From positions 1-45,115 of the IMG/VR virus record IMGVR_UViG_3300045988_060953: a DNA stretch of 45,115 nucleotides; one strand, 5' to 3'. Under the pieces are notes generated by a model. That model was not told where the DNA came from, did not search any database, and saw only the letters and a program-made list of their open reading frames with translations. Every line of letters begins with the position of its first letter. Position 1 is the stretch's first letter. This DNA comes from a virus. This document shows, piece by piece, positions 1 to 45,115 of the stretch. The translations under genes were made by a program, and so were the position numbers.

Positions 1-141
1 ACACGTCTTTGAGGACGAACCACGGTTCGCCGTTCAGCTCTACGGTGCGAACTTCGCTGGACTTGTAGTGGAAAACTAAAATGTCGTTCATGTTGTCTCC
101 TTTCATGTGTCTAATTTAGACACAAGTTCTTCAAAAAAAAT
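1..141. repeat. Terminal direct repeat, left copy (circular-closure overlap)
   Basis: Bases 1-141 (acacgtctttgagg...caagttcttcaaaaaaaat) are identical to 44975-45115. The repeat cuts through the antirepressor CDS, whose 5' end is duplicated at 1..91 on the minus strand. The molecule is therefore circular or circularly permuted, with 44,974 unique bp. Confidence 0.95.
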
Positions 142-492: not shown

Positions 493-861
493 TTGGACGT
501 TGGAGAAATCATAAGGACTGCCCGTATAAAAAAAGGGCTGACGCAAGAAGAGCTTGGCAATATCGTCGGAGTGCAAAAGTCGGCGATTGCAAAATATGAA
601 AGCGGTCGCGTCGTGAACATAAAAAGGAGTATACTGGTAAAACTTGCGCAAGCTCTTGGGCTGAATGGATCTGACCTAATCGGTGCAAGCGCAGAAATTC
701 ACGAGTACATAAAAAAAGACCCGAAAGCAGCTGCTGCCAAAGCGGCGGAACTACTTTCGGATCAGGATTTTATAGACTTATACACCCTGTACAAATCACT
801 CCCGCAAGAAAAAAAGAATCAAATCCGCGATTTCATCCTTTTTATTGCAAATCAGCCTTGA
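493..861 (+). CDS. CI-like XRE-family repressor
   Basis: 122 aa with a TTG start and RBS GGAAGGTGGTGA. N-terminal HTH IRTARIKKGLTQEELGNIVGVQKSAIAKYESGR. The C-terminal helix LPQEKKNQIRDFILFI resembles repressor tail helices. Confidence 0.8.
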   Translation: MDVGEIIRTARIKKGLTQEELGNIVGVQKSAIAKYESGRVVNIKRSILVKLAQALGLNGSDLIGASAEIHEYIKKDPKAAAAKAAELLSDQDFIDLYTLYKSLPQEKKNQIRDFILFIANQP

Positions 862-1075
862 AAAAGTACTGAATAAAGTGGAGAATGAATTCTTTTTGCT
901 CCTTCGTCAGTGACTTGATAAGAACAAGTAATTTCCTATCAATCTTACTCATATATACTCCTTTCTGCTGCCCTGCTGATGCTTCGAGGACTTGCAGGTA
1001 AGCAATAAACTCTTTGAGTTGTTCTCTCGTCAGCTTTCGCATGAGTTCTTCAATTTCTTTTCGCGGTTCGTTCAT
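842..1075 (-). CDS. Small helical protein with two copies of the repressor-tail motif (no HTH)
   Basis: 77 aa. RBS GGAAGTGAGGT 4 nt before the ATG. There is an internal second RBS AAAGGAG before M42. Contains LTREQLKEFIAYLQ and LTKEQKEFILHFIQ, both resembling the C-terminal LPQEKKNQIRDFILFI of the CI-like protein. Convergent with the CI-like gene and overlaps it by 20 nt. Confidence 0.5.
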   Translation of the reverse strand: MNEPRKEIEELMRKLTREQLKEFIAYLQVLEASAGQQKGVYMSKIDRKLLVLIKSLTKEQKEFILHFIQYFFKADLQ

Positions 1076-1101
1076 GATTACCTCACTTCCTTATATAATG
1101 G

Positions 1102-1674
1102 GTGATTACAATGGTTGCTTTTGCTTGGGTTGTTATTATTGCCGGGCTTATCGTGGGCTTTGGAAATCGCGCAGATGAGAAGCGCGAGAACCCATCCGCC
1201 AAAGGCATGACGCGCGTACAAAAATGGTCGTTCGGTGCCGTTGCAGTAGCGGCGGTTTATGCCCTCATGATAGCACCGAGTTTGGATACGGGCACATCCG
1301 CGCCTGCAACGTCCGTGGAAGATCGTTCTGACCCCTGCACATACAAAGTCACGGCTGACTTTGAGGAGGAGTGGAACAACTCCGTGGGCCATGACTGGAA
1401 GTTTTACGCCACGGTAAACGGGGAGACAATCACCAACAGTGGCGTGGAAATCACCTGTGACGTGGGAGACCGCGTGGATTTGTACGCCCAGTGCGTTGAG
1501 CGGGACACATACCCCGATATAGGAGAGGATAACTCCTATATCATTATTGAAGAAGATGATTTATGGAATCCTTTTACTGTGTATAGTGATGTTACGGTCA
1601 CGGAAGATCGCGGGCGGTACGCCGGGAACACAGCCGGGATTGCCGTGACGTTTACGTTTGAACCTGTAGAATGA
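1102..1674 (+). CDS. Membrane protein of the lysogeny module (two N-terminal TM helices plus an extracytoplasmic domain); candidate superinfection-exclusion moron
   Basis: 190 aa. GTG start, with an alternative ATG at 1111. TM segments VAFAWVVIIAGLIVGF and WSFGAVAVAAVYALMIAP, then an acidic beta-rich domain. Function is inferred from position only. Confidence 0.55.
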   Translation: MITMVAFAWVVIIAGLIVGFGNRADEKRENPSAKGMTRVQKWSFGAVAVAAVYALMIAPSLDTGTSAPATSVEDRSDPCTYKVTADFEEEWNNSVGHDWKFYATVNGETITNSGVEITCDVGDRVDLYAQCVERDTYPDIGEDNSYIIIEEDDLWNPFTVYSDVTVTEDRGRYAGNTAGIAVTFTFEPVE

Positions 1675-1742
1675 AACCATGTACTTGTTGTCCACACAAT
1701 AGCATAAACTCGCGGCTTTTACCACGTCTAAAATTGCGTAAA

Positions 1743-1785
1743 AAAAGAGCGTTTCCCGGCATTCGACAGCTGAGAAACGCTCTTT
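1743..1785. terminator. Bidirectional rho-independent-type hairpin
   Basis: AAAAGAGCGTTTC (1743-1755) pairs with GAAACGCTCTTTT (1773-1785). A-tract upstream and T-tract (ggtattttt) downstream. Confidence 0.6.
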
Positions 1786-1814
1786 TGGTATTTTTGCACA
1801 AAGGAGGATGACAT

Positions 1815-2393
1815 ATGTTGTACGATGCAAAGAGGATTGCAGCACTCATGGCACAGGCAAGGGAAAGGTCGGGCATTGCGCAAGAGACGCTTGCCGCGCT
1901 GCTGCACGTCAGCCCGCGCACGGTGCAGAGATGGGAGCACGGGGAGAAGCCGCCCACACTGGAAGATTTTATAAACTGGTACAGAGCGTTAAGTTTGAAC
2001 TGGTTTCCAGACGTTCTCCGCCTGGCCCACCCGGAGTTGTACACCGACTTTGACGGCAGCCACGCGGATGTGGAGCAGAGGCGGAACGGGCTGTTTAAAT
2101 ACCTGGCTGATTGCCCGCCGGGGGAGGTTGACAAGCTGGCATTCCTGATCTTCGGCGCGCATGGAAGCGAATGGCCGTCCATGCTGGACGAATACGTTGC
2201 AAACGCCCATTGTAGCATGGCCAGCCGGACAGCCGTGTGCAGGCTGATAATTGACAACTACGAGCTAGAGTCCATCACCGGCGACTTGGTGGAGCCGGAG
2301 AAAGCAAAACCGAACCTGCAAAACCTGCACAGCGCCCACGATGCAGGCAGGCAAGCCGCCCAGATGAAAAAGAACGAGTACACCATGAAATGA
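1815..2393 (+). CDS. Second XRE-family HTH protein with an unknown C-terminal domain, immediately upstream of int
   Basis: 192 aa. RBS AAAGGAGG. HTH GIAQETLAALLHVSPRTVQRWEHGEKPP. About 130 aa of C-terminal sequence with no motif I recognise. Confidence 0.65.
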   Translation: MLYDAKRIAALMAQARERSGIAQETLAALLHVSPRTVQRWEHGEKPPTLEDFINWYRALSLNWFPDVLRLAHPELYTDFDGSHADVEQRRNGLFKYLADCPPGEVDKLAFLIFGAHGSEWPSMLDEYVANAHCSMASRTAVCRLIIDNYELESITGDLVEPEKAKPNLQNLHSAHDAGRQAAQMKKNEYTMK

Positions 2394-2403
2394 GGTGCAA
2401 GCC

Positions 2404-3558
2404 ATGACGTGTGTGAGATGTGCAAGAGACATCCCAGAAGGGGCGCTGTTTTGCCCGTGGTGTGGCAAACGGCAGACGGCGGCCACCCGGCCAAAGGCAA
2501 GAAGGGCAAAGGGCAACGGCTCCATTGCGCGTCTGCAAGGGCGCAGCTCGCCCTACAAGGCTGTTTACAAGGGGGCCTATATCGGTTGCTATAAAACCAA
2601 ACAAGACGCGGAGAGGGCTATTCTCGCGGCCTCAGAGCAAGAACCTGATTTGGAGTACCGAAACTACACCATGCAGCAGGTGTATGACGCGGTGATCTCT
2701 GACCGTGCTTTCCGGCAGAACACAGAGAAGTACCGGATTGACGTGGCATCCACCTGGAACTACATGACAGAGCTGCACCACGTCAAGGCAATCAACGTGC
2801 GAAAAGAAACGTTGGAGGGCATCCTGTACCGGGCAGAGGATGAAGGGAAATCGAAGTCCCACCAGCACAAGCTCCGCTCGCTCATGCACAAGCTCTGTAT
2901 GTTTTGCGTCCAGCACGGCATCCATCAGACGGATTACTCCGAGGGCCTGAAACTCACCGCCGACGTGAAGAGCCAGCGTGTGCCGTTTGCTGATGAAGAT
3001 TTGCGGTTGCTCTACCAGCACCGATATGAGCGGGTGCCCGGCATTATCTGGTTCTTGTGCATGAGTGGTTGCCGCCTTGTAGACCTTGCGAAGATCTCAC
3101 GTAATGGCTGCATTGACTTTGAGCGCCACGGCATCCGTCTGGAAGGCTCCAAAACCGCCGCCGGGAAGAACCGGTACATTCTTCTCGACCCCATCACATG
3201 GGACGTGTTTATGCACTTCTGCAACGACACAAAGCCCGGCCAGCGCATTTTCCGCAGCCCAAATGGCAGCGCCTGGAACATCCGCAATTTCCGGATACGA
3301 GAATTCTACACGGGCCTGGAAGAAATAGGTGTGCAGAATCCGCACCGCTATGTCCCTTACTCATGCCGTCACACCTTCGCCAGTCTCGCGGCCAAAGCGA
3401 ACGTGGACAAGGAAGCGCTGCAACGCGCCATCGGCCACCAGATCGGCAGTTCTGTCACGGACGATTATTATATTTCGCAAGACGCACACATCGCCGTCGC
3501 ACAAGAAGAGTTTGAAAAAATGGCAAACGAGATTAAATGTATTATTGATGCAACGTAA
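2404..3558 (+). CDS. int: Tyrosine integrase with an N-terminal zinc-ribbon
   Basis: RBS GAGGTG then ATG at 2404 (the track's GTG at 2395 is less likely). N-terminus CVRCARDIPEGALFCPWCGKR is CxxC...CxxC. Catalytic signature: CMSGCRLVDL (Arg), HRYVPYSCRHTFAS (HxxR), IGHQIGSSVTDDYY (His...Tyr). Confidence 0.9.
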   Translation: MTCVRCARDIPEGALFCPWCGKRQTAATRPKARRAKGNGSIARLQGRSSPYKAVYKGAYIGCYKTKQDAERAILAASEQEPDLEYRNYTMQQVYDAVISDRAFRQNTEKYRIDVASTWNYMTELHHVKAINVRKETLEGILYRAEDEGKSKSHQHKLRSLMHKLCMFCVQHGIHQTDYSEGLKLTADVKSQRVPFADEDLRLLYQHRYERVPGIIWFLCMSGCRLVDLAKISRNGCIDFERHGIRLEGSKTAAGKNRYILLDPITWDVFMHFCNDTKPGQRIFRSPNGSAWNIRNFRIREFYTGLEEIGVQNPHRYVPYSCRHTFASLAAKANVDKEALQRAIGHQIGSSVTDDYYISQDAHIAVAQEEFEKMANEIKCIIDAT

Positions 3559-3631
3559 TTTGTTACACTATCCGTTACACTATGCGCCAAATTCTGCGGA
3601 ATTGGAACACATTTGTTTTTGAACAAAAAAC

Positions 3632-3670
3632 AAAAGGCACCATGCAAACAACGTTGCACGGTGCCTTTTT
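3632..3670 (+). terminator. Rho-independent terminator after int
   Basis: GGCACCATGCAA / TTGCACGGTGCC stem (one mismatch) followed by TTTTT. It abuts the tRNA fragment. Confidence 0.7.
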
Positions 3671-3719
3671 GGTGCGCTGGAAGGGACTCGAACCCCCGAC
3701 CTTCTGATTCGTAGTCAGA
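3670..3719 (-). mobile_element. attP core: 3' portion of a tRNA-Arg(ACG) gene
   Basis: Minus strand reads TCTGA-CTACGAA-TCAGA (anticodon stem-loop, anticodon ACG), AGGTC, GGGGG-TTCGAGT-CCCTT (T arm), CCAGCGC-A-CCA. No matching 5' half (GCGCTGG...) is present. Lies next to int. Confidence 0.8.
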
Positions 3720-3772
3720 ATTTTTTGGTGATTTTCAACGAAAATGCGTTGAACTGTTACTCTATTGTTGCA

Positions 3773-3898
3773 TTATAAGTGCTTTACACGGTCTCGTTCT
3801 TCGGCCTTCTTTGCGTCGTTCCACTTGTCCATTGTGCCCACCAGATAGCCGGTGATCCGGCGGATACGCTCAAAGGCAATGTTGTTACCAATGTCCAT
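3773..3898 (-). CDS. 41-aa stand-alone NrdD-type glycyl-radical C-terminal motif protein
   Basis: Below the ORF-track length cutoff. Strong RBS AAAGGAG 6 nt before the ATG. Translation: MDIGNNIAFERIRRITGYLVGTMDKWNDAKKAEERDRVKHL. It matches the class III ribonucleotide reductase C-terminus pattern RR(V/I)(C/T)GYL...(F/W)N.(G/A)K..E...RVKHL, as in E. coli NrdD ...RRVCGYLGSPDARPFNAGKQEEVKRRVKHL. Confidence 0.75.
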   Translation of the reverse strand: MDIGNNIAFERIRRITGYLVGTMDKWNDAKKAEERDRVKHL

Positions 3899-3912
3899 GT
3901 GCTGCTCCTTTC

Positions 3913-6900
3913 TTACCGAGAAGATTTCCAGTTGGACGAACTCGCCGCCCAGAATGCGTCTTTCATGGCATCGCTCATGTCGCTGTCATTCAGCCATGCA
4001 CGGGCCTCGCTCTGGTTAATGCCCGTCTTGCCGTCCGTGTTCGCGTACTTCCGGTAGGCAATCCAGTTCATCAGCCCATCAATGCCATACTGATTGTAGA
4101 TGTCAACGCGCTTCCGCTCTTCGGTGCCAACGGAGAAGTCGGGCACGATGTCCAGAGCTGCAATTTTGCCTGCGGTGCCGTACAGCTCCGGGATAAGCTC
4201 CACTTGCTGCTCTTCGGTGTAGCGAGAATCCAACACGGCTTCTGCCATGTCCTTGCGCAGTTGGCCTTGCTGTGTTGCAAAGTCGGTGTACTCTTGCGGA
4301 GAAAGCTGGTAGGTGTGCTTTTCCTTGTCAACTGTCCAAGACAGCTTCTTTTCGGCAAGCTCCGGAATAACTTCGTCGTTGCCGGTGCTGTTCGCCAGAT
4401 CGAGCAAGCCAAGCTGCACCGGATCGTCCGTGGTTTCGGAATAGTAGCCGGGGGAGAACATGTTGTAGGCAAGACGGCCAACAAAGTTCCCGCCGGGGTT
4501 TTCTTCCGTGTCGCCGAATGCATCAATATACGGTTGGCTGGTTTGCGACAAAAACGGAATTTTGTTCCGCATTTTGTTGGCCGTATAACCCAAGTCTGAT
4601 TCAATGCCGGTCGTGCCGCTATAGGTGCTGCGCCGAATGGGGTCAATGGTTCGGGCAACCTGTCCCAGAGACGTTGGCACATACTGCGTTGCATACCCGG
4701 TAATCGCTTCACGTGTCAATCCAGGAATGAAACCATCTCGGGAATACCGCAGGTTTTCAAACGAGTTGTTCATGCCCTGCAGGAATGTGTTTGTAATAAG
4801 CGGCTCAAGCATGTGCGTTGTCGCATCGTAAATGTCGTTGAGCGATACATCGTCATCCGTCGTCAGGTTTGCAAATTCTGCACCGGCAAGCATTGGGATA
4901 GCCACAGAGTTGGCCCAACTAATGGTGTAACTATGCAGTTTCCCGTTCTCATCCGCTAGTTGGAGGCTGTACTCCTGTCGGCCTTCCATGTCCGCCTTTA
5001 CCTTGTCGTCGTCATCAATTCCGCCGGTGAGCAGTCCCTTGCGTGCCAATATTGCGCCAAGCACGAACAAGCTGGTACCTGTTACAGATGCTGCTGCGTG
5101 GTCAAGCATTACATTGAAATTACCGCTTCCCGTTGCCACCTTTGCGCCTTCTATCGCGGTAGAAGCAAATCCAAGCGGGCTGTACTGCATCGCTTGTTTG
5201 GCAACGTTGATGGGAGTTTTCACGAACGGGAGTTCGCCTTCGGCCAACGCATAAAAGAATTTATGGTGCCAACCGTCCGCTTCGGCAAGGCTGCGCTTTC
5301 CTTTCGCAATGATCGTCGCTGTTTCAGAATCAGCATGGAATGTGTTGATAAACGCCTGTGTCAAAGCATGAGCACGCGCCTTATCAAGGATCTGCATACT
5401 TGCTTCGTCTGTTGCGCTGAAAATGCTTTGGTCTAGGCCGTTTGCCTTGAGGTACTGAGCCAGAGATCGTGCGTAATTGTTTTTCAGACCGGCAACGCCA
5501 AGAACGCCCGCTTGGGTAGACTTGTCGCATTGAGACGTAACCCAGTCTATCGCACTATCCATTTGCTTGTTGATCCCACGCAGGCCATCCAGCATCCCAA
5601 AGAAACCTTTGTAGTCACCACTTTCCAACGACTTCGAGGAAGCTTCGGCCCGTCCGTCTAAATACGCAAACAAGCCCCGAACGATCGTTCCGCTGTCATC
5701 TGTAAGGTGACTTTGCCAGAGGTTCCCCTTTTGCTGCATGGATTGCGCAAAATCAATTTTGTCGCTTCCCGTTGCAAGCTGGCGATAGTTCGCATCTGCG
5801 TCCGCAGCGCAAGCCGAAAGCAACGCACGGCCTTTCGGAGTAAACGCACTAACAATAGATGTCGTGCGTTCAAACCCGGACTTGTCACGCCAATTGTGCT
5901 TCTTTGCAAATGGCAGGTCAAGAACCTTGTTCACAAGGACTTCTTCTCCGGCAAGTACAATGTCTTTCATGCGGGCATTTGCGCCTTGTGTAATGTTGCC
6001 TCCGGCGTTTACAAGGTTTGTGCGAGCGTTGAGAAGCATAGACGTGAACCGCAAAGAATTGATTGTATCCCACCAAGAAGAGGTTACGTTCTTTGCCGCA
6101 ATTGTCGCCGCCTTGTTTTCCAGATCCACCCGCTCCCGGCTGTTTGCGGGCAACGCTTCCGCCTGCTCCGTTAAGTCAAGGATCTGCTGGCACTGCTCCG
6201 CAGTCAAGGGCTGTACGCCAAACTTCGACGCGGCATAGGCTTTCACATCTTCGTTGTCGTAAATGCCCATGCGCAAAAGCCCCAAAAATTGGTCGTGCGT
6301 GGACTTGCTCGTTTTGCCTTTCCCGCCCCGGATGGCTTTCAGGTTTGCGTCCGCCGCTTCTGACAATGCTTTGGAATACTCGTTCATGGCCATTTCGGCA
6401 ATACGTTGTGCTTGCGTGTCGTCCATGTCGAAGGTATCCTGAATGCGCTCCTGAATTTCTCGAAGAGTGGACTGTTTGTCCCTACGCCCTTTTTTGACTA
6501 GGGTCTTGAAGTCAATCCCTTGATCTTTGGTGTACTTGGACACAAGTTGCTTTATTGTATCTTTCCCGTACAAGCCGGATTCTCCGGCATCATTAAAGAA
6601 AGCTTGCAGGCGGCTGCTCATGTCGGCATTGTCTTTATACCTTTCGACAAGTGCTTCCTTTGCCGCTTCCCATGCCTGCGTGTATGTCTCCTGATTGTCC
6701 AATGCGGTTTGCAACTTCTGTTCGACCGTCAGCTTCGGCTTTTTAGGCCGTGCGCCTTTCTCGGTGTCGCTTGTCGCCATTTTGGTCAGCTGGGAAAGCA
6801 TCTCGCTTTGCACAACGTCCTCAACGCTGGCTTCTTTCCCGTCCGTTGCGTACCGATTTACGGCAGCTGCCAGCTTGCGCCCCAACACGTCCTCAACCGA

Positions 6901-9900
6901 AGGCTGGTCAGTCTCGTCCGCAACTTGCTGCTGGACAGTTTCAATGGCTTTCTGCACAGCGTCATTAGCTTTTTGAGTGGCTGTGTCCTCTGCGTTTGCA
7001 ATGGCTGTTTCCACGTCACTTTTGTACTGATCGAATTTTCGCTTGTTTTTGCCATTCGCTACACGGTCAACAGCGGTCTTGATGCTCTTCTGCGACTGCA
7101 TCACGGCGGTCTCCGGAGTGGTAAACTCCTGCGTCATTTGCAGCGCTTGCGCGTTCATGGTGTTGGACTCACTAATCCGCTGGGTAAACTTCATCTTCTG
7201 GGCAAGGGCCTGCTTGTACGCCTCTCCGCTCTTGTCCATATCGCCCAAAGCCAAATCCCACTCGCGTAGTACGCTTCCGGCCAGCGCGGTGTCATCGGCA
7301 TCCCACTGCTCTTTACTGGTCAAGCGGGACACGATCTCGTCACGGCTTTCGGTCTCCATGCTGTTGGCCGCAATCTTCATTCGGTCTGCGTTGCTTACGC
7401 GCTCGTGGGTAAACTTTTGCTCGCCGCCTTGATCTCTCTGCACAAGAGGTTGCAGGTAATCATTGTCAGTGTCGCGCGTCATATGGCTTTGGCTAGATAC
7501 TTCGGGGCGGTCAAACTGCCGTTGTGCCGCACCTACCGTATTGGGATGATCTTCCAGTGTGGGAATGAGTTCCTGTACGCGCTGCGTGGGCATCAGTTCC
7601 GGGATGGTAGTGGCGGCTGTGGAACCCTGAGATCCTGATTCTTGCTGCCCCAATTGCGCCCTCTCGTCCAAAACACTGCGCACTGTATCAAACACCGTGT
7701 CGAAGTCATCAACAAAATCGCCGAATATGCTTTTAGCCAATTCAGGCCGATAAGCATATCCGGCAATTTGAGCAGAGAGTTCTCGTCGGAATTTTGGAAG
7801 ATTGTCTAAATCCATGAAATCCGGGTTTCGTTCATCATACCCATGCAACACTTCGTACAAATCTGTGCCTTCTCTGTACGCATTGGGATTAACCCCGGAT
7901 TCTTTCAGAGCCGCATCCACACGCGCATACAGAGCGTGGTTTTTGTGTTGAATGTTGTGCATTACCTCATGGTCGATCATGGCGGTTACAGTGTCGGGGT
8001 CAAGGGCCGCCGCATTGTTCACTACGATCGTTCCGTCCGGAAGCGTAAACATAAGACTGTTATGTTCGTTACCATCCACATAAGCAGGGCCGTCACTCAC
8101 ATCAACATCTAGCCCGTACCGTTGCTTGGCATAGTCCGCCGCCGTTCGTACCGGTGCCGTGTAGTCAGCTGCATCTGGTTGACCGTAGGTGTATCGGTGA
8201 CCATTTATTTCCCGGACCCTTTCCGGCGTTCCTCCTCCAGGTACTCGGCGAACCTGTTCAGGAACTCCCGTATTTGCTGATCCTTTTCCGGAGAAGGCGG
8301 GTTTTTCCGGTGCTTTTCCCTCAGCTCGGCGATCATCTTCGGAGAAATCCACTCCATCGAGATTCCGTCGTCCATATCCTCCTCGTGTGCCAACTTCTTC
8401 ACCTCCATCCTGCATTGCGTTGGTTTCAGTATACGGACTGTTTTCAAAGTTGTCAAACGCTTCCGTCTGCGCTTCGCGGGCCATAGCCGCATCCAGCGAA
8501 TCGCCATACAGAATATGATCCGCCACATATGCGCGCGCAGCCTTCATGCTTTCGGTGTCTACCGCTTGTACGCCGTCCTTTAGTTGGTCATATTTCTGCA
8601 CAATTTCGGCAAAAGCATCTGCGGGGTGTGCAAACAAGTCAACATCCGGAAAAGCCTCTCCCAGTTCCATAACCGCCTGGTCAAGGCCACTCGTTGAAGA
8701 ATCTCCCGCTTTCACCAGATTCAGGCCATACCTGCGGTTGATTTCGGTTCTCGTCGCGCCCAGCGCGTTTTCAAGGTCGCTCAGTTCGGCATCTGTTACA
8801 CGCACCGGTTTTTTCAGAGCTTCCCGCAATGCACGCACATAGTCAGTATCCGTATTTTCTACAAAAGCACTTTCCGGAAATATTTTTTCCGCCAGCGCCT
8901 GAGCCTCTTGCTCAATCGTGGAAGTATCTTCTCCGTTTTGCACCGCATCCAGGAAACGGTCTCTAATGTCCGCCAGCTGGCGCGTATATACGCTTTTACC
9001 GTCTTTCCCTGTGATCTCTGCCGCAATGTCGCGCGATGTTGCTCCGCCAATGTATCCAGGATCCTCTGCGTGGTACCCAGCAGGAACATAACCCGCATCC
9101 TCACTTAAAGTGGGAATTGTCTGAATTTGCGCTTCGGCTTTCAGCGTCTTTCTCGTCTCGCTGCTGGTATCCGGCAGCTTCACGCCCGTGGCCTCTTCAA
9201 ACGCCTGCCGAAGTTCCCCGCCTGGTTTCAGCTGCTCAATCTGCGCGTTGGTCAGGTTGCCGTTATGGTATGCATCCACAACCGCATCAAGTCCGGGAAG
9301 CGCTTCTTGCCCGGCTTCCAAGGGCTGCCGTGCGGCTTCGGTGTCAGGTGATACCGGTTCTGCCTGCTGTACATCCGTGTCCACAGGGGCATTCTCTTGC
9401 GCTTCACGCAAACGATTCACGCCGCTGCCAATAAGAGAGCTTCCCGCCGCGCTGATTGCGCCGCCCAGTGCGCCGCCAAGTGCCTGCTGCCCAAGTTCAG
9501 CAAGGCTGAAGTTTGCATCCGGATCTCCGGCCAAAACGTCGAGGCCGTAGTCTGCTGCATACTCAGAGGCTTCCTGCCCACCTTCGCTCAGTGCTTGACG
9601 CGCCATTGCCCGCAGTACGCCGGGGCCGCCGCCCGCAATCAGTTCCGCACCCTGTTCAAGAGGGAGCTTATTGGTCACGCCAGAGACAGCACCGGACATT
9701 GCACCGCGAAGAACCGCTTGGTTAAGCGGAATACCGCGCTGTTCCAGTTCGTTCACCCGGTTGCCTGCCGCGCTTACGCCCATGAGGGTGGGAATCAAAA
9801 CGGGGGCAGCTTCTGGCACGGCCGCCGCAGCTGCAAAGGCAGGAAGGTTCTGCGCGACACTTCCGATTGTGCCAACCACGAATCGACCGGTGTTATCAAG

Positions 9901-11100
9901 GCCAGCCTGTGCTTTCTGGTTCTGATTTTGTGCGAAGTCCAGCATATTGCCGACAACTTGATTGCGCTCGGGGGTTACTTGATTTTCAGCCCGCACACCC
10001 TTTGCGCTTGCAATGCGGTCAAGCACCTGCTGGAATTCAGGCGTAGCGACAGGGCCGTTCGGAGTGTCGGTGTAGGCCCGGCCCATCTGAATGAGAGCGT
10101 CCCGCTGCTCGTTGGCTTCTTGCAGGTCGTCCGATGCCGCCTCATACTCCGGTATGTCCATACTTGCAGACTGGCCACGGATTGCGCGGGCCGTGGCATC
10201 GCCCATGTTCGCCACGCCAGCAGCAAAGCCGGAGACTGCACCAAGTCCGGTTGCGCCTGCACGGCCAGTAAAAGAGTCCACGCCCAACGCGGTTGCATAG
10301 GTGTCATGCTGGTTTTGCAGTTGCCGGTATTCTCGGGTTTTGGTCTTTCCCTGCTTTTGCAGCTCCCGCATCCGCTGGTTTGTTGCGGTCAGACGTGCAT
10401 CCAGCTCCTGTGTCGTGAAGTTCTGCTTCGCCACAGAGGCCCGGGTTTTGGTTCTAGATCTTTGTTTTGCTGCCGTTGCTTGCGGGGTTTGGTCGCCGCC
10501 TAGATCCACGCTGTCCTCGGCAGACACGCCGCCACGCGCGGCCTTCATCCGGTTGTGCAGCGCAGTGCCTTGCACAACGCCGTCTTTGACGGCAGAAGGG
10601 CCTTTTTTTACGAGAGCTGCTGCGCCTTCTTTGATTGCGCTCCACAGGCCCTTCTTCTTTGCGCTGTCGTCCTTGACGCCGTTGTTGGTGTTGCCGGTGC
10701 CGCCGCTCTGGTTGCTGGTGCCGCCGCTCTGGTTGCCGGAGTTCGACGATTCTTCTGCCTTTTTGCGTTCGTCCTCCGCCTTTTTCTTTGCTTCCTTCGC
10801 GGCTTTCGCTGCGGCTTTTGCGGCTGCCTTTGCTTCTTTTTCTGCGGCTGCCTGGGCTGCCTTCGCTTCCTTCTCACGCTGTGCTTCAACGGCTGCCAGC
10901 TGCTTTGTGTAGGCCGTTGTAAAGCTGTTGGCGATGTCTCCATAGTCGGGCAGAGTTGTGGGCGCAGCGTTCATGGCTTGCTGGCCGGTGTACCGGGCGC
11001 TGCTCATGCCCGTTTTGCCGCTGTTTATGGCGTTCTGCTGGGCCTTTGCATAGTTTTTAAGGTAGGCGTTCAGAAACGCTTCCTGATCAGAATAGGGCAT
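3913..11100 (-). CDS. Giant (2395 aa) polyvalent virion/ejection-type protein with a zincin HExxH domain
   Basis: RBS AAGGAGGA. N-terminal Ala/Lys-rich coiled region and a G/N/S low-complexity tract. HEVMH (TAMIDHEVMHNIQHKNH) encoded at 7957-7971. Long alpha-rich C-terminal half. No tail tube, sheath or chaperone genes are nearby, so a tape-measure call is not supported. Confidence 0.6.
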   Translation of the reverse strand: MPYSDQEAFLNAYLKNYAKAQQNAINSGKTGMSSARYTGQQAMNAAPTTLPDYGDIANSFTTAYTKQLAAVEAQREKEAKAAQAAAEKEAKAAAKAAAKAAKEAKKKAEDERKKAEESSNSGNQSGGTSNQSGGTGNTNNGVKDDSAKKKGLWSAIKEGAAALVKKGPSAVKDGVVQGTALHNRMKAARGGVSAEDSVDLGGDQTPQATAAKQRSRTKTRASVAKQNFTTQELDARLTATNQRMRELQKQGKTKTREYRQLQNQHDTYATALGVDSFTGRAGATGLGAVSGFAAGVANMGDATARAIRGQSASMDIPEYEAASDDLQEANEQRDALIQMGRAYTDTPNGPVATPEFQQVLDRIASAKGVRAENQVTPERNQVVGNMLDFAQNQNQKAQAGLDNTGRFVVGTIGSVAQNLPAFAAAAAVPEAAPVLIPTLMGVSAAGNRVNELEQRGIPLNQAVLRGAMSGAVSGVTNKLPLEQGAELIAGGGPGVLRAMARQALSEGGQEASEYAADYGLDVLAGDPDANFSLAELGQQALGGALGGAISAAGSSLIGSGVNRLREAQENAPVDTDVQQAEPVSPDTEAARQPLEAGQEALPGLDAVVDAYHNGNLTNAQIEQLKPGGELRQAFEEATGVKLPDTSSETRKTLKAEAQIQTIPTLSEDAGYVPAGYHAEDPGYIGGATSRDIAAEITGKDGKSVYTRQLADIRDRFLDAVQNGEDTSTIEQEAQALAEKIFPESAFVENTDTDYVRALREALKKPVRVTDAELSDLENALGATRTEINRRYGLNLVKAGDSSTSGLDQAVMELGEAFPDVDLFAHPADAFAEIVQKYDQLKDGVQAVDTESMKAARAYVADHILYGDSLDAAMAREAQTEAFDNFENSPYTETNAMQDGGEEVGTRGGYGRRNLDGVDFSEDDRRAEGKAPEKPAFSGKGSANTGVPEQVRRVPGGGTPERVREINGHRYTYGQPDAADYTAPVRTAADYAKQRYGLDVDVSDGPAYVDGNEHNSLMFTLPDGTIVVNNAAALDPDTVTAMIDHEVMHNIQHKNHALYARVDAALKESGVNPNAYREGTDLYEVLHGYDERNPDFMDLDNLPKFRRELSAQIAGYAYRPELAKSIFGDFVDDFDTVFDTVRSVLDERAQLGQQESGSQGSTAATTIPELMPTQRVQELIPTLEDHPNTVGAAQRQFDRPEVSSQSHMTRDTDNDYLQPLVQRDQGGEQKFTHERVSNADRMKIAANSMETESRDEIVSRLTSKEQWDADDTALAGSVLREWDLALGDMDKSGEAYKQALAQKMKFTQRISESNTMNAQALQMTQEFTTPETAVMQSQKSIKTAVDRVANGKNKRKFDQYKSDVETAIANAEDTATQKANDAVQKAIETVQQQVADETDQPSVEDVLGRKLAAAVNRYATDGKEASVEDVVQSEMLSQLTKMATSDTEKGARPKKPKLTVEQKLQTALDNQETYTQAWEAAKEALVERYKDNADMSSRLQAFFNDAGESGLYGKDTIKQLVSKYTKDQGIDFKTLVKKGRRDKQSTLREIQERIQDTFDMDDTQAQRIAEMAMNEYSKALSEAADANLKAIRGGKGKTSKSTHDQFLGLLRMGIYDNEDVKAYAASKFGVQPLTAEQCQQILDLTEQAEALPANSRERVDLENKAATIAAKNVTSSWWDTINSLRFTSMLLNARTNLVNAGGNITQGANARMKDIVLAGEEVLVNKVLDLPFAKKHNWRDKSGFERTTSIVSAFTPKGRALLSACAADADANYRQLATGSDKIDFAQSMQQKGNLWQSHLTDDSGTIVRGLFAYLDGRAEASSKSLESGDYKGFFGMLDGLRGINKQMDSAIDWVTSQCDKSTQAGVLGVAGLKNNYARSLAQYLKANGLDQSIFSATDEASMQILDKARAHALTQAFINTFHADSETATIIAKGKRSLAEADGWHHKFFYALAEGELPFVKTPINVAKQAMQYSPLGFASTAIEGAKVATGSGNFNVMLDHAAASVTGTSLFVLGAILARKGLLTGGIDDDDKVKADMEGRQEYSLQLADENGKLHSYTISWANSVAIPMLAGAEFANLTTDDDVSLNDIYDATTHMLEPLITNTFLQGMNNSFENLRYSRDGFIPGLTREAITGYATQYVPTSLGQVARTIDPIRRSTYSGTTGIESDLGYTANKMRNKIPFLSQTSQPYIDAFGDTEENPGGNFVGRLAYNMFSPGYYSETTDDPVQLGLLDLANSTGNDEVIPELAEKKLSWTVDKEKHTYQLSPQEYTDFATQQGQLRKDMAEAVLDSRYTEEQQVELIPELYGTAGKIAALDIVPDFSVGTEERKRVDIYNQYGIDGLMNWIAYRKYANTDGKTGINQSEARAWLNDSDMSDAMKDAFWAASSSNWKSSR
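10696..10737. repeat. 2 x 21-bp tandem repeat inside the giant gene
   Basis: GGTGCCGCCGCTCTGGTTGC(T/C) occurs twice in tandem. It encodes SGNQSGGTSNQSGGTGN. An adjacent GC(G/T)GC-rich tract encodes (A/K/E)n. Confidence 0.9.
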
Positions 11101-11159
11101 GGAGTCCTCCTTATTTCAAAAAAATCCCGGCCGTGTTTCAGGCCGGGCGGAGAATGAAA

Positions 11160-27361: not shown

Positions 27362-27435
27362 TGGTTGGGCTGGCAGGTGTCGAACCTGCTATGTGGGAGT
27401 CAAAGTCCCATGCCTTACCGTTTGGCCACAGCCCA
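27362..27435 (-). tRNA. tRNA-Gln(TTG), CCA encoded
   Basis: Hand-folded: acceptor TGGGCTG/CAGCCCA; D arm GCC-AAACGGTAA-GGC; anticodon arm TGGGA-CTTTGAC-TCCCA; T arm GCAGG-TTCGACA-CCTGC; A-CCA. Confidence 0.85.
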
Positions 27436-27539: not shown

Positions 27540-27615
27540 TGGAGCCGCCAGAAGGACTCGAACCCTCGACCTGCTGCTTACAAGACAGCCGCTCTACCAA
27601 CTGAGCTATGACGGC
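27540..27615 (-). tRNA. tRNA-Thr(TGT), CCA encoded
   Basis: Hand-folded: acceptor GCCGTCA/TGGCGGC; D arm GCTC-AGTTGGTA-GAGC; anticodon arm GCTGT-CTTGTAA-GCAGC; T arm GAGGG-TTCGAGT-CCTTC; T-CCA. Confidence 0.85.
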
Positions 27616-44357: not shown

Positions 44358-45065
44358 TTACTCATATAAGCTGGTCTGGGCGTTGGTCTGCTGAATGAGC
44401 ATCACGGAGTTGGTGCTGGGCTTCCAGCGCTGGATGTACTCCACAGCCTGGGTGAAATCCTTGCGGGGTACGTTGCACACGCTGTTGACCCGGAACCAGT
44501 CCTGAACGTCGCGGTTGCACTCGCTGAACAACTTGCCGCGCACATGGGGGTCGTTGTAGGCCGGGGCCGACTTACCGCCCAGGGCTTCCACCACTACCCG
44601 GCCAACGGCCTTTTTCAAGGTCTGCTGCTGGCTGTAATCCACCGTCATGGTGTTTTCCAGCGCGGTGATGCGGGCCTCTTGCTTTTGGGTGCGGTCATCC
44701 AGAAGGAAGAGCGCCTGCATCTCCTTGCTGAGTTTGGGCATCGTGTAGCTGCCCGTCTTGCGGATGGATGGCAACACCTCGCTAGTTACCCACTTGCGGA
44801 ATGGTTTTGCCTCCGGCTTGTCGCTGCGCAGGATGACGTTGTACAGGCCAGACTCGTTGATAACGGTAGTCTCCTGCTGGCGGCCCATGCTGTCGGTGAG
44901 GTCAGTCAGGCTTACCTCATCCGCATCAAGCCGCTGCGCCGTCATTTTGTGGTTGGAGATCCCCAGCACCGCGCACACGTCTTTGAGGACGAACCACGGT
45001 TCGCCGTTCAGCTCTACGGTGCGAACTTCGCTGGACTTGTAGTGGAAAACTAAAATGTCGTTCAT
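44358..45065 (-). CDS. Antirepressor (BRO-N domain plus C-terminal ORF6C/KilA-C-like domain)
   Basis: ATG 45065 with RBS AAAGGAGAC (alternative ATG at 45080). MNDILVFHYKSSEVRTVELNGEPWFVLKDVCAVLGISN...SGLYNVILRSDKPEAKPFRKWVTSEVLPSIRKTG is the BRO-N signature. Spans the circular junction. Confidence 0.85.
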   Translation of the reverse strand: MNDILVFHYKSSEVRTVELNGEPWFVLKDVCAVLGISNHKMTAQRLDADEVSLTDLTDSMGRQQETTVINESGLYNVILRSDKPEAKPFRKWVTSEVLPSIRKTGSYTMPKLSKEMQALFLLDDRTQKQEARITALENTMTVDYSQQQTLKKAVGRVVVEALGGKSAPAYNDPHVRGKLFSECNRDVQDWFRVNSVCNVPRKDFTQAVEYIQRWKPSTNSVMLIQQTNAQTSLYE

Positions 45066-45115
45066 GTTGTCTCCTTTCATGTGTCTAATTTAGACACAAG
45101 TTCTTCAAAAAAAAT
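44975..45115. repeat. Terminal direct repeat, right copy (circular-closure overlap)
   Basis: Exact copy of 1-141. A length of 141 bp equals a common final assembler k-mer, so this is more likely an assembly overlap than a physical DTR (inference). Confidence 0.95.

What the first reader, a model, noticed from the sequence alone, without database searches (positions are those of the whole stretch)
3773..3898. Stand-alone 41-aa NrdD glycyl-radical C-terminus at the attP-proximal end of the phage
This ORF is hidden below the ORF-track length cutoff. It has a strong AAAGGAG RBS and encodes MDIGNNIAFERIRRITGYLVGTMDKWNDAKKAEERDRVKHL. That sequence matches the glycyl-radical loop and C-terminal tail of anaerobic (class III) ribonucleotide reductase, RR(V/I)(C/T)GYL...N.(G/A)K..E...RVKHL. 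It lacks the preceding Zn-ribbon and the catalytic barrel.

In pyruvate formate-lyase, a small 'spare part' protein (GrcA/YfiD) replaces the C-terminus after oxygen cleaves the enzyme at the radical glycine. I know of no equivalent spare part for NrdD.

The gene sits in the classical moron position, as the last gene before attP.

Alternative readings:
- a decoy for the NrdG activase;
- a relic of captured host DNA that happens to retain a start codon and RBS.
Basis: partly seen in the sequence, partly recalled or inferred. Interest (0 to 1): 0.8.

Follow-up and report, generated by a model that had tools for sequence, protein, structure and literature searches.

The report
Phage copy of split-NrdD radical subunit
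A gut phage carries a conserved 41-residue gene for only the radical-bearing tip of the oxygen-sensitive (anaerobic) ribonucleotide reductase; many gut anaerobes encode this tip as a separate small gene, an arrangement not described in the papers I searched, so the phage probably supplies the enzyme's consumable part.

Summary
A 41-aa ORF lies at 3773..3898 on the minus strand, with an AAAGGAG ribosome-binding site. It matches only the last ~32 positions of NrdD profiles (Pfam PF13597, E=3.7e-9, above the curated cut-off). The window holds no NrdD body and no NrdG.

The new finding is that this is not a fragment of a long gene. Its closest relatives are short stand-alone proteins of 39-62 aa. 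In Allofournierella, a Faecalibacterium MAG, Lachnospiraceae, Succinivibrio and other gut anaerobes, that small gene sits between nrdG and an nrdD that stops after the Zn ribbon and lacks the radical glycine. Class III RNR is therefore naturally split there.

The phage gene is identical to the Allofournierella small subunit over the 32-codon core, yet differs at 11 synonymous sites. Seventeen related phage genomes show 13 nucleotide alleles and no amino-acid change. All 25 family loci examined keep the ORF intact. At least 16 unrelated viral contigs also carry a solitary copy.

Best reading: a functional radical subunit that host NrdG activates and that docks into the host large subunit. This has the logic of GrcA/Y06I or of cyanophage psbA. 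The "relic" reading is rejected. The host, the expression timing and the biochemistry remain untested.

The parts
3773..3898 (-). 41-aa CDS: stand-alone glycyl-radical subunit of class III RNR (mini-NrdD). The radical glycine G17 is encoded at 3848..3850.
   Evidence: ORF listed. Matches: Pfam NRDD E=3.7e-9, NCBIfam NrdD C-termini E=2e-15, and alignment to P. copri NrdD Gly711/Tyr712. Purifying selection. Intact in all 25 family loci examined.
3905..3911 (-). Ribosome-binding site AAAGGAG, six bases upstream of the ATG.
   Evidence: Read directly from the sequence. Host small genes carry an equivalent AAGGAGG site.
3913..11100 (-). Upstream 2395-aa ORF of unknown function. Its stop codon lies 14 nt before the mini-gene ATG, so the two are probably co-transcribed.
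   Evidence: ORF. No Pfam or PHROG hit. The same gene order recurs in all related genomes shown. No promoter-like site lies between 3900 and 4600 on the minus strand.
3670..3719 (-). 3' 50 nt of a tRNA-Arg(ACG): anticodon arm, T arm, acceptor 3' strand and CCA. Presumed attP core.
   Evidence: No complete tRNA found by ARAGORN. Rfam partial tRNA match of 22.3 bits over model positions 9-63. Sequence read.
3622..3669 (-). Intrinsic-terminator-like hairpin (16 pairs) followed by a T run. It closes the minus-strand transcription unit just past the tRNA fragment.
2395..3558 (+). Tyrosine integrase, convergent with the mini-gene across the presumed attP.
   Evidence: PF00589 on the orthologous genes. 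Adjacent to the mini-gene in 8 of the 9 IMG/VR contigs of this phage family; the ninth locus (L116) ends ~100 nt past the gene.

Best explanation
The ORF encodes a working copy of the small, radical-bearing subunit of a two-piece class III (anaerobic) ribonucleotide reductase.

In many gut anaerobes NrdD is made from two cistrons:
- A ~760-aa large chain with the ATP-cone, the barrel and the Zn ribbon. It ends in a conserved ~28-aa tail and has no radical glycine.
- A 44-60-aa peptide carrying the loop FERIRRITGYLVG..., a short helix and the C-terminal tail.

The phage encodes only this peptide.

Proposed mechanism, all steps inferred:
1. The peptide is translated during infection. It is probably co-transcribed with the upstream giant gene.
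2. Host NrdG abstracts the C-alpha hydrogen of G17.
3. The activated peptide inserts its loop into the barrel of the host large subunit, next to the catalytic cysteine.
4. dNTP synthesis for phage DNA continues.

Why a phage would carry only this piece:
- The peptide is the consumable part of the enzyme. In glycyl radical enzymes, oxygen cleaves the chain at the radical glycine.
- A very small peptide may also turn over quickly once host expression falls.
- A phage copy would replace what is lost. T4 Y06I/GrcA does this for pyruvate formate-lyase, and cyanophage psbA does it for the D1 protein.
For: **Shown by the tools**
1. All 120 best relatives among 5.8 billion proteins are 39-62 aa long. 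The best 150 of 2493 hits in the 50%-identity representative library are 48-196 aa long.
2. P0078 (48 aa) is indexed in 1966 blocks of the collection. Eight places were shown, from chromosome-scale contigs of up to 3.2 Mb, and all have the order nrdD(761 aa)-small gene-nrdG. The 761-aa protein ends after the Zn ribbon with no RxxGY motif.
3. Of the best 80 loci from GTDB species genomes, 37 have this split layout. They include the isolates Allofournierella massiliensis DSM 100451 and Succinivibrio dextrinosolvens DSM 3072.
4. A Faecalibacterium MAG has only 12 nt and an AAGGAGG site between the two cistrons.
5. The reading frames of the two cistrons differ from locus to locus, and Rfam finds no intron. 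They are therefore two separate polypeptides.
6. The window and Allofournierella are identical over the 32-codon core, with 11 synonymous and 0 nonsynonymous differences (pS=0.53). Seventeen phage genomes give 13 alleles, a mean of 3.55 synonymous differences and 0 nonsynonymous. Against 61 short host genes pN/pS is 0.087.
7. All 25 phage-family loci keep an intact ORF.
8. Sixteen further IMG/VR contigs carry a solitary small gene with no nrdD body or nrdG within 8 kb. Several sit beside endolysin or tail-fibre genes.
9. G17, Y18 and K25 align with Gly711, Tyr712 and Arg719 of P. copri NrdD. In that enzyme the glycyl radical domain is mobile and can become fully disordered.

**From the literature**
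- A phage-encoded glycyl-radical spare part exists for PFL: T4 Y06I (PMC8683613).
Against: - Nothing biochemical is known. No experiment shows that any split NrdD is active, or that a free ~45-aa peptide is an NrdG substrate.
- The phage's host was not identified. Integrase, terminase and lysin searches gave no named close relative. It is therefore not shown that the host's NrdD is the split type.
- The gene lies at the very end of the late/accessory region, not in the replication module. No promoter-like site was found directly upstream. A terminator-like hairpin precedes the giant gene. Timing and level of expression are unknown.
- AlphaFold2 on the peptide alone gives a single helix. This says nothing about docking.
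Confidence: 0.6

Rival explanations
1. A true GrcA-style emergency spare part. The host has a full-length NrdD, and the phage peptide only replaces the C-terminus after oxygen has cleaved the enzyme at the radical glycine.
For: - The host is unknown, so a full-length host NrdD is not excluded.
- Full-length NrdDs with near-identical C-termini exist in related Clostridia.
- Orphan ~100-130-aa glycyl-radical proteins lie far from any nrdD or nrdG in some Clostridia chromosomes.
- T4 Y06I is a precedent (PMC8683613).
Against: - The peptide's closest relatives are all subunits of naturally split enzymes. The 32-residue core is 100% identical and the C-terminus ends in the same KHL.
- A cleaved full-length enzyme would keep the N-terminal stub of the loop. 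That stub would have to leave before the peptide could bind, which has been shown only for PFL.
Confidence: 0.15
2. A lysogenic-conversion gene. It is expressed from the prophage to raise the lysogen's tolerance of oxygen exposure by increasing the supply of the radical subunit. The benefit goes to the host rather than to phage replication.
For: - It is the outermost gene of the prophage, next to the presumed attP, and reads outward.
- It lies in an accessory block downstream of the lysis cassette.
- A terminator-like hairpin separates that block from the upstream late genes.
Against: - No sigma-70-like promoter was found upstream on its strand within 700 nt.
- It is 14 nt downstream of a 7-kb ORF.
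- All contigs shown were free circular genomes, not prophages.
Confidence: 0.15
3. A decoy or inhibitor. The peptide titrates NrdG or occupies the large subunit unproductively, in order to remodel host nucleotide metabolism.
For: A free peptide carrying the recognition motif would be expected to bind the activase (inference only).
Against: - The radical glycine and all 32 core residues are identical to functional host subunits and are held by purifying selection.
- An inhibitor would be expected to diverge, for example by losing the glycine.
- Shutting down dNTP supply would harm a phage that carries no RNR of its own.
Confidence: 0.07
4. A non-functional relic of captured host DNA that happens to keep a start codon and a ribosome-binding site.
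For: It lies next to the integration site, where imprecise excision can capture host DNA.
Against: - The window differs from the nearest host gene by 11 synonymous and 0 nonsynonymous changes, and 17 phage genomes show 13 alleles with 0 nonsynonymous changes.
- The ORF is intact in all 25 family loci.
- Solitary copies recur in unrelated phages.
- The flanking att sequence is a tRNA, not the nrd operon.
Confidence: 0.03

Closest known systems
GrcA/YfiD of E. coli and Y06I of phage T4 (autonomous glycyl-radical cofactors, the "spare parts" for pyruvate formate-lyase)
   Same: - A small stand-alone protein that carries only the glycyl-radical loop of a large glycyl radical enzyme.
- A phage-encoded example exists.
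- The logic is to replace the oxygen-labile part rather than the whole enzyme (PMC8683613; PMC13450708).
   Different: - It is homologous to NrdD, not to PFL. Pfam reports only NRDD and no Gly_radical or GrcA model.
- It is 41 aa long, against ~127 aa.
- Its bacterial counterparts are obligate subunits encoded inside nrdD-nrdG operons whose large chain never has the loop. They are not back-ups for an intact enzyme.
- The 2026 review states that formate lyases are the only GRE class with identified spare parts.
Full-length class III RNR NrdD (P. copri 8P23, phage T4 1H7A)
   Same: The loop, helix and tail that follow the Zn ribbon. G17, Y18 and K25 align with Gly711, Tyr712 and Arg719.
   Different: It lacks the ATP-cone, the barrel, the catalytic cysteines and the Zn ribbon. 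Neither nrdG nor an nrdD body is present in the phage.
Split class II RNR NrdJa/NrdJb (Pseudomonas aeruginosa; Thermus phage YS40)
   Same: An RNR catalytic chain divided into two adjacent cistrons near its C-terminus. A 12-nt spacer is reported for YS40, as in Faecalibacterium locus L190 (PMC9669993; PMC3653736).
   Different: Class II uses adenosylcobalamin and has no glycyl radical. NrdJb is a large folded protein. No phage is reported to carry NrdJb alone.
Phage nrdD genes split by introns, inteins or homing endonucleases (T4, Lactococcus phage 949, Aeromonas phiAS4, Clostridium c-st)
   Same: nrdD coding sequence occurs in pieces in phage genomes (PMC3653736).
   Different: In those cases all pieces are in the same genome and are rejoined or co-expressed. 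Here only the last ~40 codons exist, and no mobile element is involved.
Cyanophage psbA (D1 protein); comparison drawn from my own knowledge, not tested here
   Same: A phage carries the single, damage-prone, fast-turnover component of a host enzyme complex so as to keep it running during infection.
   Different: Unrelated protein and chemistry. This is an analogy of strategy only.

Membership tests
Class III RNR catalytic protein NrdD (Pfam PF13597 / TIGR02487) | C-terminal glycyl-radical motif R-x-x-G-Y followed by a helix and tail | tested here: met
   RRITGY at residues 13-18. Pfam E=3.7e-9, above the curated cut-off. Aligns without gaps to 8P23 residues 707-739.
Class III RNR catalytic protein NrdD (Pfam PF13597 / TIGR02487) | Ten-stranded alpha/beta barrel with the catalytic cysteine loop, and a C-terminal Zn ribbon | tested here: not met
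   The ORF is 41 aa long. tblastn with a 761-aa large subunit finds nothing anywhere in the window. The NCBIfam whole-protein scores of 36-56 bits fall far below the cut-offs of 326-764.
Class III RNR catalytic protein NrdD (Pfam PF13597 / TIGR02487) | Cognate activase gene nrdG in the same genome or operon | tested here: not met
   No NrdG homologue in the window.
Small glycyl-radical subunit of split NrdD (no curated model; defined operationally here) | Stand-alone ORF of about 40-140 aa with its own start codon and ribosome-binding site | tested here: met
   The host equivalents are shown.
Small glycyl-radical subunit of split NrdD (no curated model; defined operationally here) | Conserved core G-x-x-[VI]-x-FERIRRITGYLVGTMDKWNDAKKAEERDRVKH | tested here: met
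   28 invariant columns in alignment A1. The core is 100% identical to Allofournierella L026.
Small glycyl-radical subunit of split NrdD (no curated model; defined operationally here) | Encoded between a glycine-less nrdD large gene and nrdG | tested here: not met
   It is solitary in the phage, lying between a giant ORF and the presumed attP. At least 16 other viral contigs share the solitary state.
Small glycyl-radical subunit of split NrdD (no curated model; defined operationally here) | Protein sequence under purifying selection | tested here: met
   pN/pS is 0 within the phage family and against L026, and 0.087 against 61 short host genes.
GrcA/YfiD autonomous glycyl radical cofactor (Pfam Gly_radical PF01228 / IPR011140) | Sequence match to the PFL-type glycyl-radical domain or to GrcA models | tested here: not met
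   With E up to 10 allowed, Pfam returns only NRDD and NCBIfam returns only NrdD models.
GrcA/YfiD autonomous glycyl radical cofactor (Pfam Gly_radical PF01228 / IPR011140) | Radical installed on the free protein by the cognate activase, and activity restored to an enzyme that lacks the loop | not testable with these tools
   Needs EPR and enzyme assays.
Phage moron (autonomous accessory gene cassette) | Own promoter and terminator, independent of the neighbouring operon | tested here: inconclusive
   A terminator-like hairpin lies downstream at 3669..3632. No promoter-like site lies upstream on the minus strand within 3400-4600. A consensus scan is weak evidence either way.

The most novel reading that the evidence does not exclude
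Class III RNR in a broad set of gut anaerobes is a two-component enzyme. Its glycyl radical sits on an exchangeable ~5-kDa peptide, which would be a very small glycyl-radical protein. Temperate phages of several lineages carry their own copy of that peptide to keep the host reductase loaded during infection or after oxygen exposure. This would be the first replaceable-part system for an RNR, and the first outside the formate lyases.
Probability: 0.5. Interest if true: 0.85.

Novelty: new variant of a known kind. Interest (0 to 1): 0.75.

Why it matters
- Reviews of glycyl radical enzymes state that spare-part proteins are validated only for pyruvate formate-lyase, and ask whether other GREs have them. 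This finding points to a concrete, abundant and easily cloned candidate for the anaerobic RNR.
- The split nrdD operon is widespread and was not described in any paper I could find. It offers a natural system for asking three questions:
  - how the activase reaches the glycine;
  - whether a radical-bearing peptide can be loaded in trans;
  - how strict anaerobes such as Faecalibacterium relatives recover DNA synthesis after oxygen exposure.
- For phage biology it adds a minimal auxiliary metabolic gene of 126 nt. The same peptide is nevertheless indexed in 484 blocks of the public assembly collection and is conserved across a common gut phage family.

Tried and rejected
- **Intron joining the two host cistrons.** Rfam at E<=1 finds no intron in L006 5000-9000. 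The spacer is only 12 nt in L190. Rejected.
- **Stop-codon readthrough or frameshift fusion.** The distance from the large-ORF stop to the motif takes all three values modulo 3 across loci. Rejected.
- **Split intein.** The large-subunit tail (~28 aa) and the small-subunit leader (~10-15 aa) are too short for this. Rejected by inspection.
- **Assembly artefact.** The split layout is present in isolate genomes and in polished chromosome-scale contigs. Rejected.
- **Host identification.** All attempts failed:
  - blastn and tblastn against 50,697 phage records found no close named phage;
  - the integrase and lysin searches and the integrase cluster listing returned only unnamed metagenome or "Ackermannviridae sp." virome entries;
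  - the att core is absent from all bacterial loci fetched by then;
  - repeated contig look-ups showed only free phage genomes.
- **AlphaFold2 of the peptide alone.** It gives one long helix with pLDDT 88.6. This is uninformative about the bound state, so no fold search was run.
- **First script.** One search failed because a locus file was missing. It was rerun.

Full report
**1. The observation**

The minus strand of 3773..3898 holds an ATG-initiated ORF of 41 aa, MDIGNNIAFERIRRITGYLVGTMDKWNDAKKAEERDRVKHL. AAAGGAG lies six bases upstream of the ATG. The stop codon of a 2395-aa ORF (3913..11100) lies 14 nt upstream.

The peptide matches only the extreme C-terminus of NrdD models:
- Pfam PF13597: E=3.7e-9, 36.2 bits against a cut-off of 26.2, covering profile positions 532-562 of 562.
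- NCBIfam NrdD equivalogs: E down to 2.1e-15 over their last ~35 positions.
- PHROG 487: E=1e-6.

The only solved structure matched is Prevotella copri NrdD (8P23, E=1.3e-7). Query residues 9-41 align without gaps to chain residues 707-739. The crystallised construct carries four extra N-terminal residues. G17 therefore corresponds to the radical Gly711, Y18 to the conserved Tyr712 and K25 to Arg719. The peptide covers the buried loop, the short helix and the surface tail that follow the Zn site (PMC11226230).

A tblastn of a 761-aa NrdD large chain and a 173-aa NrdG against the window finds nothing else.

**2. The surroundings**

- The window is a complete circular assembly. Its first 141 nt equal its last 141 nt, so the unit length is 44,974 bp.
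- Downstream of the ORF on the same strand lies the 3' 50 nt of a tRNA-Arg(ACG), at 3670..3719. ARAGORN finds no whole tRNA there. Rfam gives a partial tRNA match of 22.3 bits.
- A strong terminator-like hairpin follows at 3669..3632.
- A tyrosine integrase at 2395..3558 converges on this site from the other strand.
- This is the usual layout of an attP that regenerates a tRNA. I infer attP from it and did not recover attB.
- The order GH25 lysin, holin, five small ORFs, giant ORF, mini-gene, integrase (opposite strand) recurs in every related ~42-46-kb contig shown.
- No promoter-like site lies upstream of the mini-gene on its strand within 3400-4600.
- A terminator-like hairpin sits just before the giant gene, at 11147..11126.
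- Expression is therefore unresolved.

**3. What it is related to**

This is the decisive result. In a word-indexed search of 5.8 billion proteins, the 120 best hits are all 39-62 aa long. In a full HMMER scan of 1.84 billion cluster representatives there are 2493 hits at E<=1e-3, and the best 150 are all 48-196 aa long.

One relative, P0078 (48 aa), is indexed in 1966 blocks of the collection. The eight places shown come from chromosome-scale contigs of up to 3.2 Mb. In all eight it lies between an nrdD of 761 aa (ATP-cone plus NRDD) and nrdG. That 761-aa protein ends "...CPRCGRRSGEALSPEKLDELRKKYPGVPTFCGCE", just after the Zn ribbon. It has no RxxGY motif. The small gene has its own AAAGGAGG site.

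A scan of one genome per GTDB species found at least 598 matching stretches. My scripts classified the best 80:

| Class | Loci | Notes |
|---|---|---|
| Split layout: large nrdD, then small ORF (53-140 aa stop to stop); nrdG follows wherever the contig extends far enough | 37 | Allofournierella massiliensis DSM 100451, Succinivibrio dextrinosolvens DSM 3072; Oscillospiraceae, Faecousia, Lachnospiraceae, Succinatimonas, Mailhella and Muribaculaceae MAGs |
| Full-length NrdD of 630-834 aa | 21 | |
| Apparently full-length but outside my motif pattern | 5 | |
| No nrdD body or nrdG found, motif not matched | 1 | L100 |
| Short ORFs with no nrdD body nearby | 16 | |

A Faecalibacterium MAG has the split operon with only 12 nt between the cistrons. 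The two cistrons are in different relative frames in different loci, and Rfam finds no intron. They are therefore two separate polypeptides.

Large chains of the split type share a ~28-aa tail after the Zn ribbon that full-length NrdDs lack.

**4. The phage copy is maintained by selection**

- Over the 32-codon core (F9 to H40) the window and Allofournierella differ at 11 synonymous and 0 nonsynonymous sites (pS=0.53).
- Seventeen genomes of this phage family give 13 nucleotide alleles, with a mean of 3.55 synonymous and 0 nonsynonymous differences.
- Against 61 short host genes, pN/pS is 0.087.
- All 25 family loci carry the intact ORF.
- The identical peptide is indexed in 484 blocks of the public assembly collection. 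It is deposited as DAF94861.1 and DAM39943.1, [quoted passage not shown], an automatic annotation.

**5. Other phages**

IMG/VR holds at least 581 matching stretches. The best 80 break down as follows:

| Group | Contigs |
|---|---|
| This phage family | 9 |
| Other contigs with a solitary small ORF and no nrdD body or nrdG within 8 kb | 16 |
| Phage-encoded split operons: ~610-aa large gene, ~98-aa small gene; nrdG follows, and the large gene lies off the contig end in L189 | 5 |
| Host-like split operons | 2 |
| Full-length 640-aa NrdD plus NrdG | 48 |

Several of the solitary copies lie beside endolysin or tail-fibre genes. Carrying only the radical peptide is thus recurrent in phages.

**6. 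Mechanism**

Shown: homology, the solitary state, the natural split in bacteria, and purifying selection.

Inferred: host NrdG activates G17 on the free peptide. The activated peptide inserts into the host large chain. This sustains dNTP synthesis when the peptide is limiting, either because oxygen cleaves glycyl radical enzymes at the radical glycine or because host supply falls during infection.

The glycyl radical domain of a full-length NrdD is mobile and can be entirely disordered (PMC11226230). This makes loading in trans plausible. T4 Y06I is the phage precedent for PFL (PMC8683613).

The rival readings are a GrcA-like rescue of a full-length enzyme, a lysogenic-conversion role, a decoy, and a relic. 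They are weighed in their own sections. The relic reading is rejected by the selection data.

**7. What is known**

- A 2026 review says formate lyases are the only GRE class with identified spare parts (PMC13450708).
- A 2021 paper says only YfiD and Y06I are validated, and that spare parts for other GREs are speculation.
- Split class II RNR (NrdJa/b) is known.
- Phage nrdD genes split by introns, inteins or fragmentation are known (PMC3653736).
- Seven full-text searches found no description of a two-cistron class III RNR or of a solitary NrdD radical peptide.
- Absence from this library is not proof of absence.
- The peptide is not a GrcA-family member.

**8. Limits**

- The host is unidentified. 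The phage GC content is 55%. The fetched loci of candidate split-NrdD taxa range from 52% to 64% GC among those measured.
- Expression is untested.
- AlphaFold2 on the peptide alone gives one helix and is uninformative.
- No complex prediction was possible with the tools offered.

**Verdict**

The feature is real and under selection. It is best described as a phage-borne copy of the radical subunit of a naturally split anaerobic RNR. I rate it a new variant of known kinds (autonomous glycyl-radical cofactors, split RNRs), with interest 0.75.

Noticed in passing
L006 5357-8674; L026; L071; L190 2134-5114 (and about 33 further loci of L026-L105): Naturally split class III RNR operons. An nrdD of ~760 aa ends after the Zn ribbon with no radical glycine. 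A 44-60-aa gene with its own ribosome-binding site carries the glycyl-radical loop, and nrdG follows. The layout occurs in Bacillota, Pseudomonadota (Succinivibrionaceae), Desulfovibrionaceae and Bacteroidota genomes, including isolates. I found no description of it in the papers searched.
   Followed up: yes
C-termini of the large subunits in L006, L027-L047, L084, L102, L190 and others: Split-type large subunits share a ~28-aa extension after the Zn ribbon, of the form GE-x-[IL]-x-x-E-[KR]-[ILM]-x-E-L-[RK]-K-[KM]-[YF]-P-x-x-P-x-F-x-G. Full-length NrdDs lack it. It may be the docking site for the small subunit.
   Followed up: partly
L043, L049, L051, L052, L055, L057, L058, L061, L069, L073, L075 (match near position 10000 in the 20-kb loci): Orphan ORFs (97-131 aa stop to stop). 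An N-terminal module ("..LTIxxDGEFVxLxYxxxPVP") is fused to the same glycyl-radical core. They sit among ordinary chromosomal genes (aminotransferase, hydrolase, Rrf2 regulator, adenylosuccinate lyase), with no nrdD body or nrdG within 10 kb. They may be true stand-alone spare parts for NrdD.
   Followed up: partly
L121, L136, L153, L155, L189 (IMG/VR contigs): Phage-encoded split RNR operons. A ~610-aa NrdD without ATP-cone ends just after the Zn ribbon. A ~98-aa small subunit with the same N-terminal module as the bacterial orphans follows, then NrdG. In L189 the large gene lies off the contig end.
   Followed up: partly
window 3913-11100 (-): A 2395-aa ORF with no Pfam or PHROG match. It contains an HExxH-like motif (HEVMH). 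Its length varies from 2014 to 2258 aa among close relatives. It lies downstream of the lysis cassette and is preceded by a terminator-like hairpin at 11147..11126.
   Followed up: partly
L001 (Eggerthella phage EL753P1, OP172808.1) 626-4087: The nrdD (960 aa) carries what looks like an intein insertion (judged by eye, not tested) and ends after the Zn ribbon. The glycyl-radical region is encoded ~370 nt further on, after a 102-aa ORF, but a frame change between RIRRI and TTGYL breaks it. The cause could be a sequencing error, a pseudogene or recoding; this is unresolved.
   Followed up: partly
L006 7650-7810: The ~360-nt spacer between the large and small nrd genes contains two copies of a ~60-nt direct repeat (GGACCCGACCGGAGGTTTGC.CCGATTGGCTGATTCGCGGCACCCGGCTTTCCTCAGC). 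The spacer is only 12 nt in a Faecalibacterium MAG, so the repeat looks like an insertion.
   Followed up: no
window 27362-27435 and 27540-27615 (-): Two phage-encoded tRNA genes, Gln(TTG) and Thr(TGT), lie just upstream of the large terminase gene.
   Followed up: no
window 1-141 and 44975-45115: The first and last 141 nt are identical, the signature of a circular assembly. The genome is 44,974 bp.
   Followed up: yes
L002 (MT837933.1) 399-2762: A record labelled "Bacteriophage sp." holds a full-length 787-aa NrdD whose C-terminus is 74% identical to the peptide. The 5.9-kb scaffold was not checked for phage genes, so it may be bacterial DNA in a virome data set.
   Followed up: no
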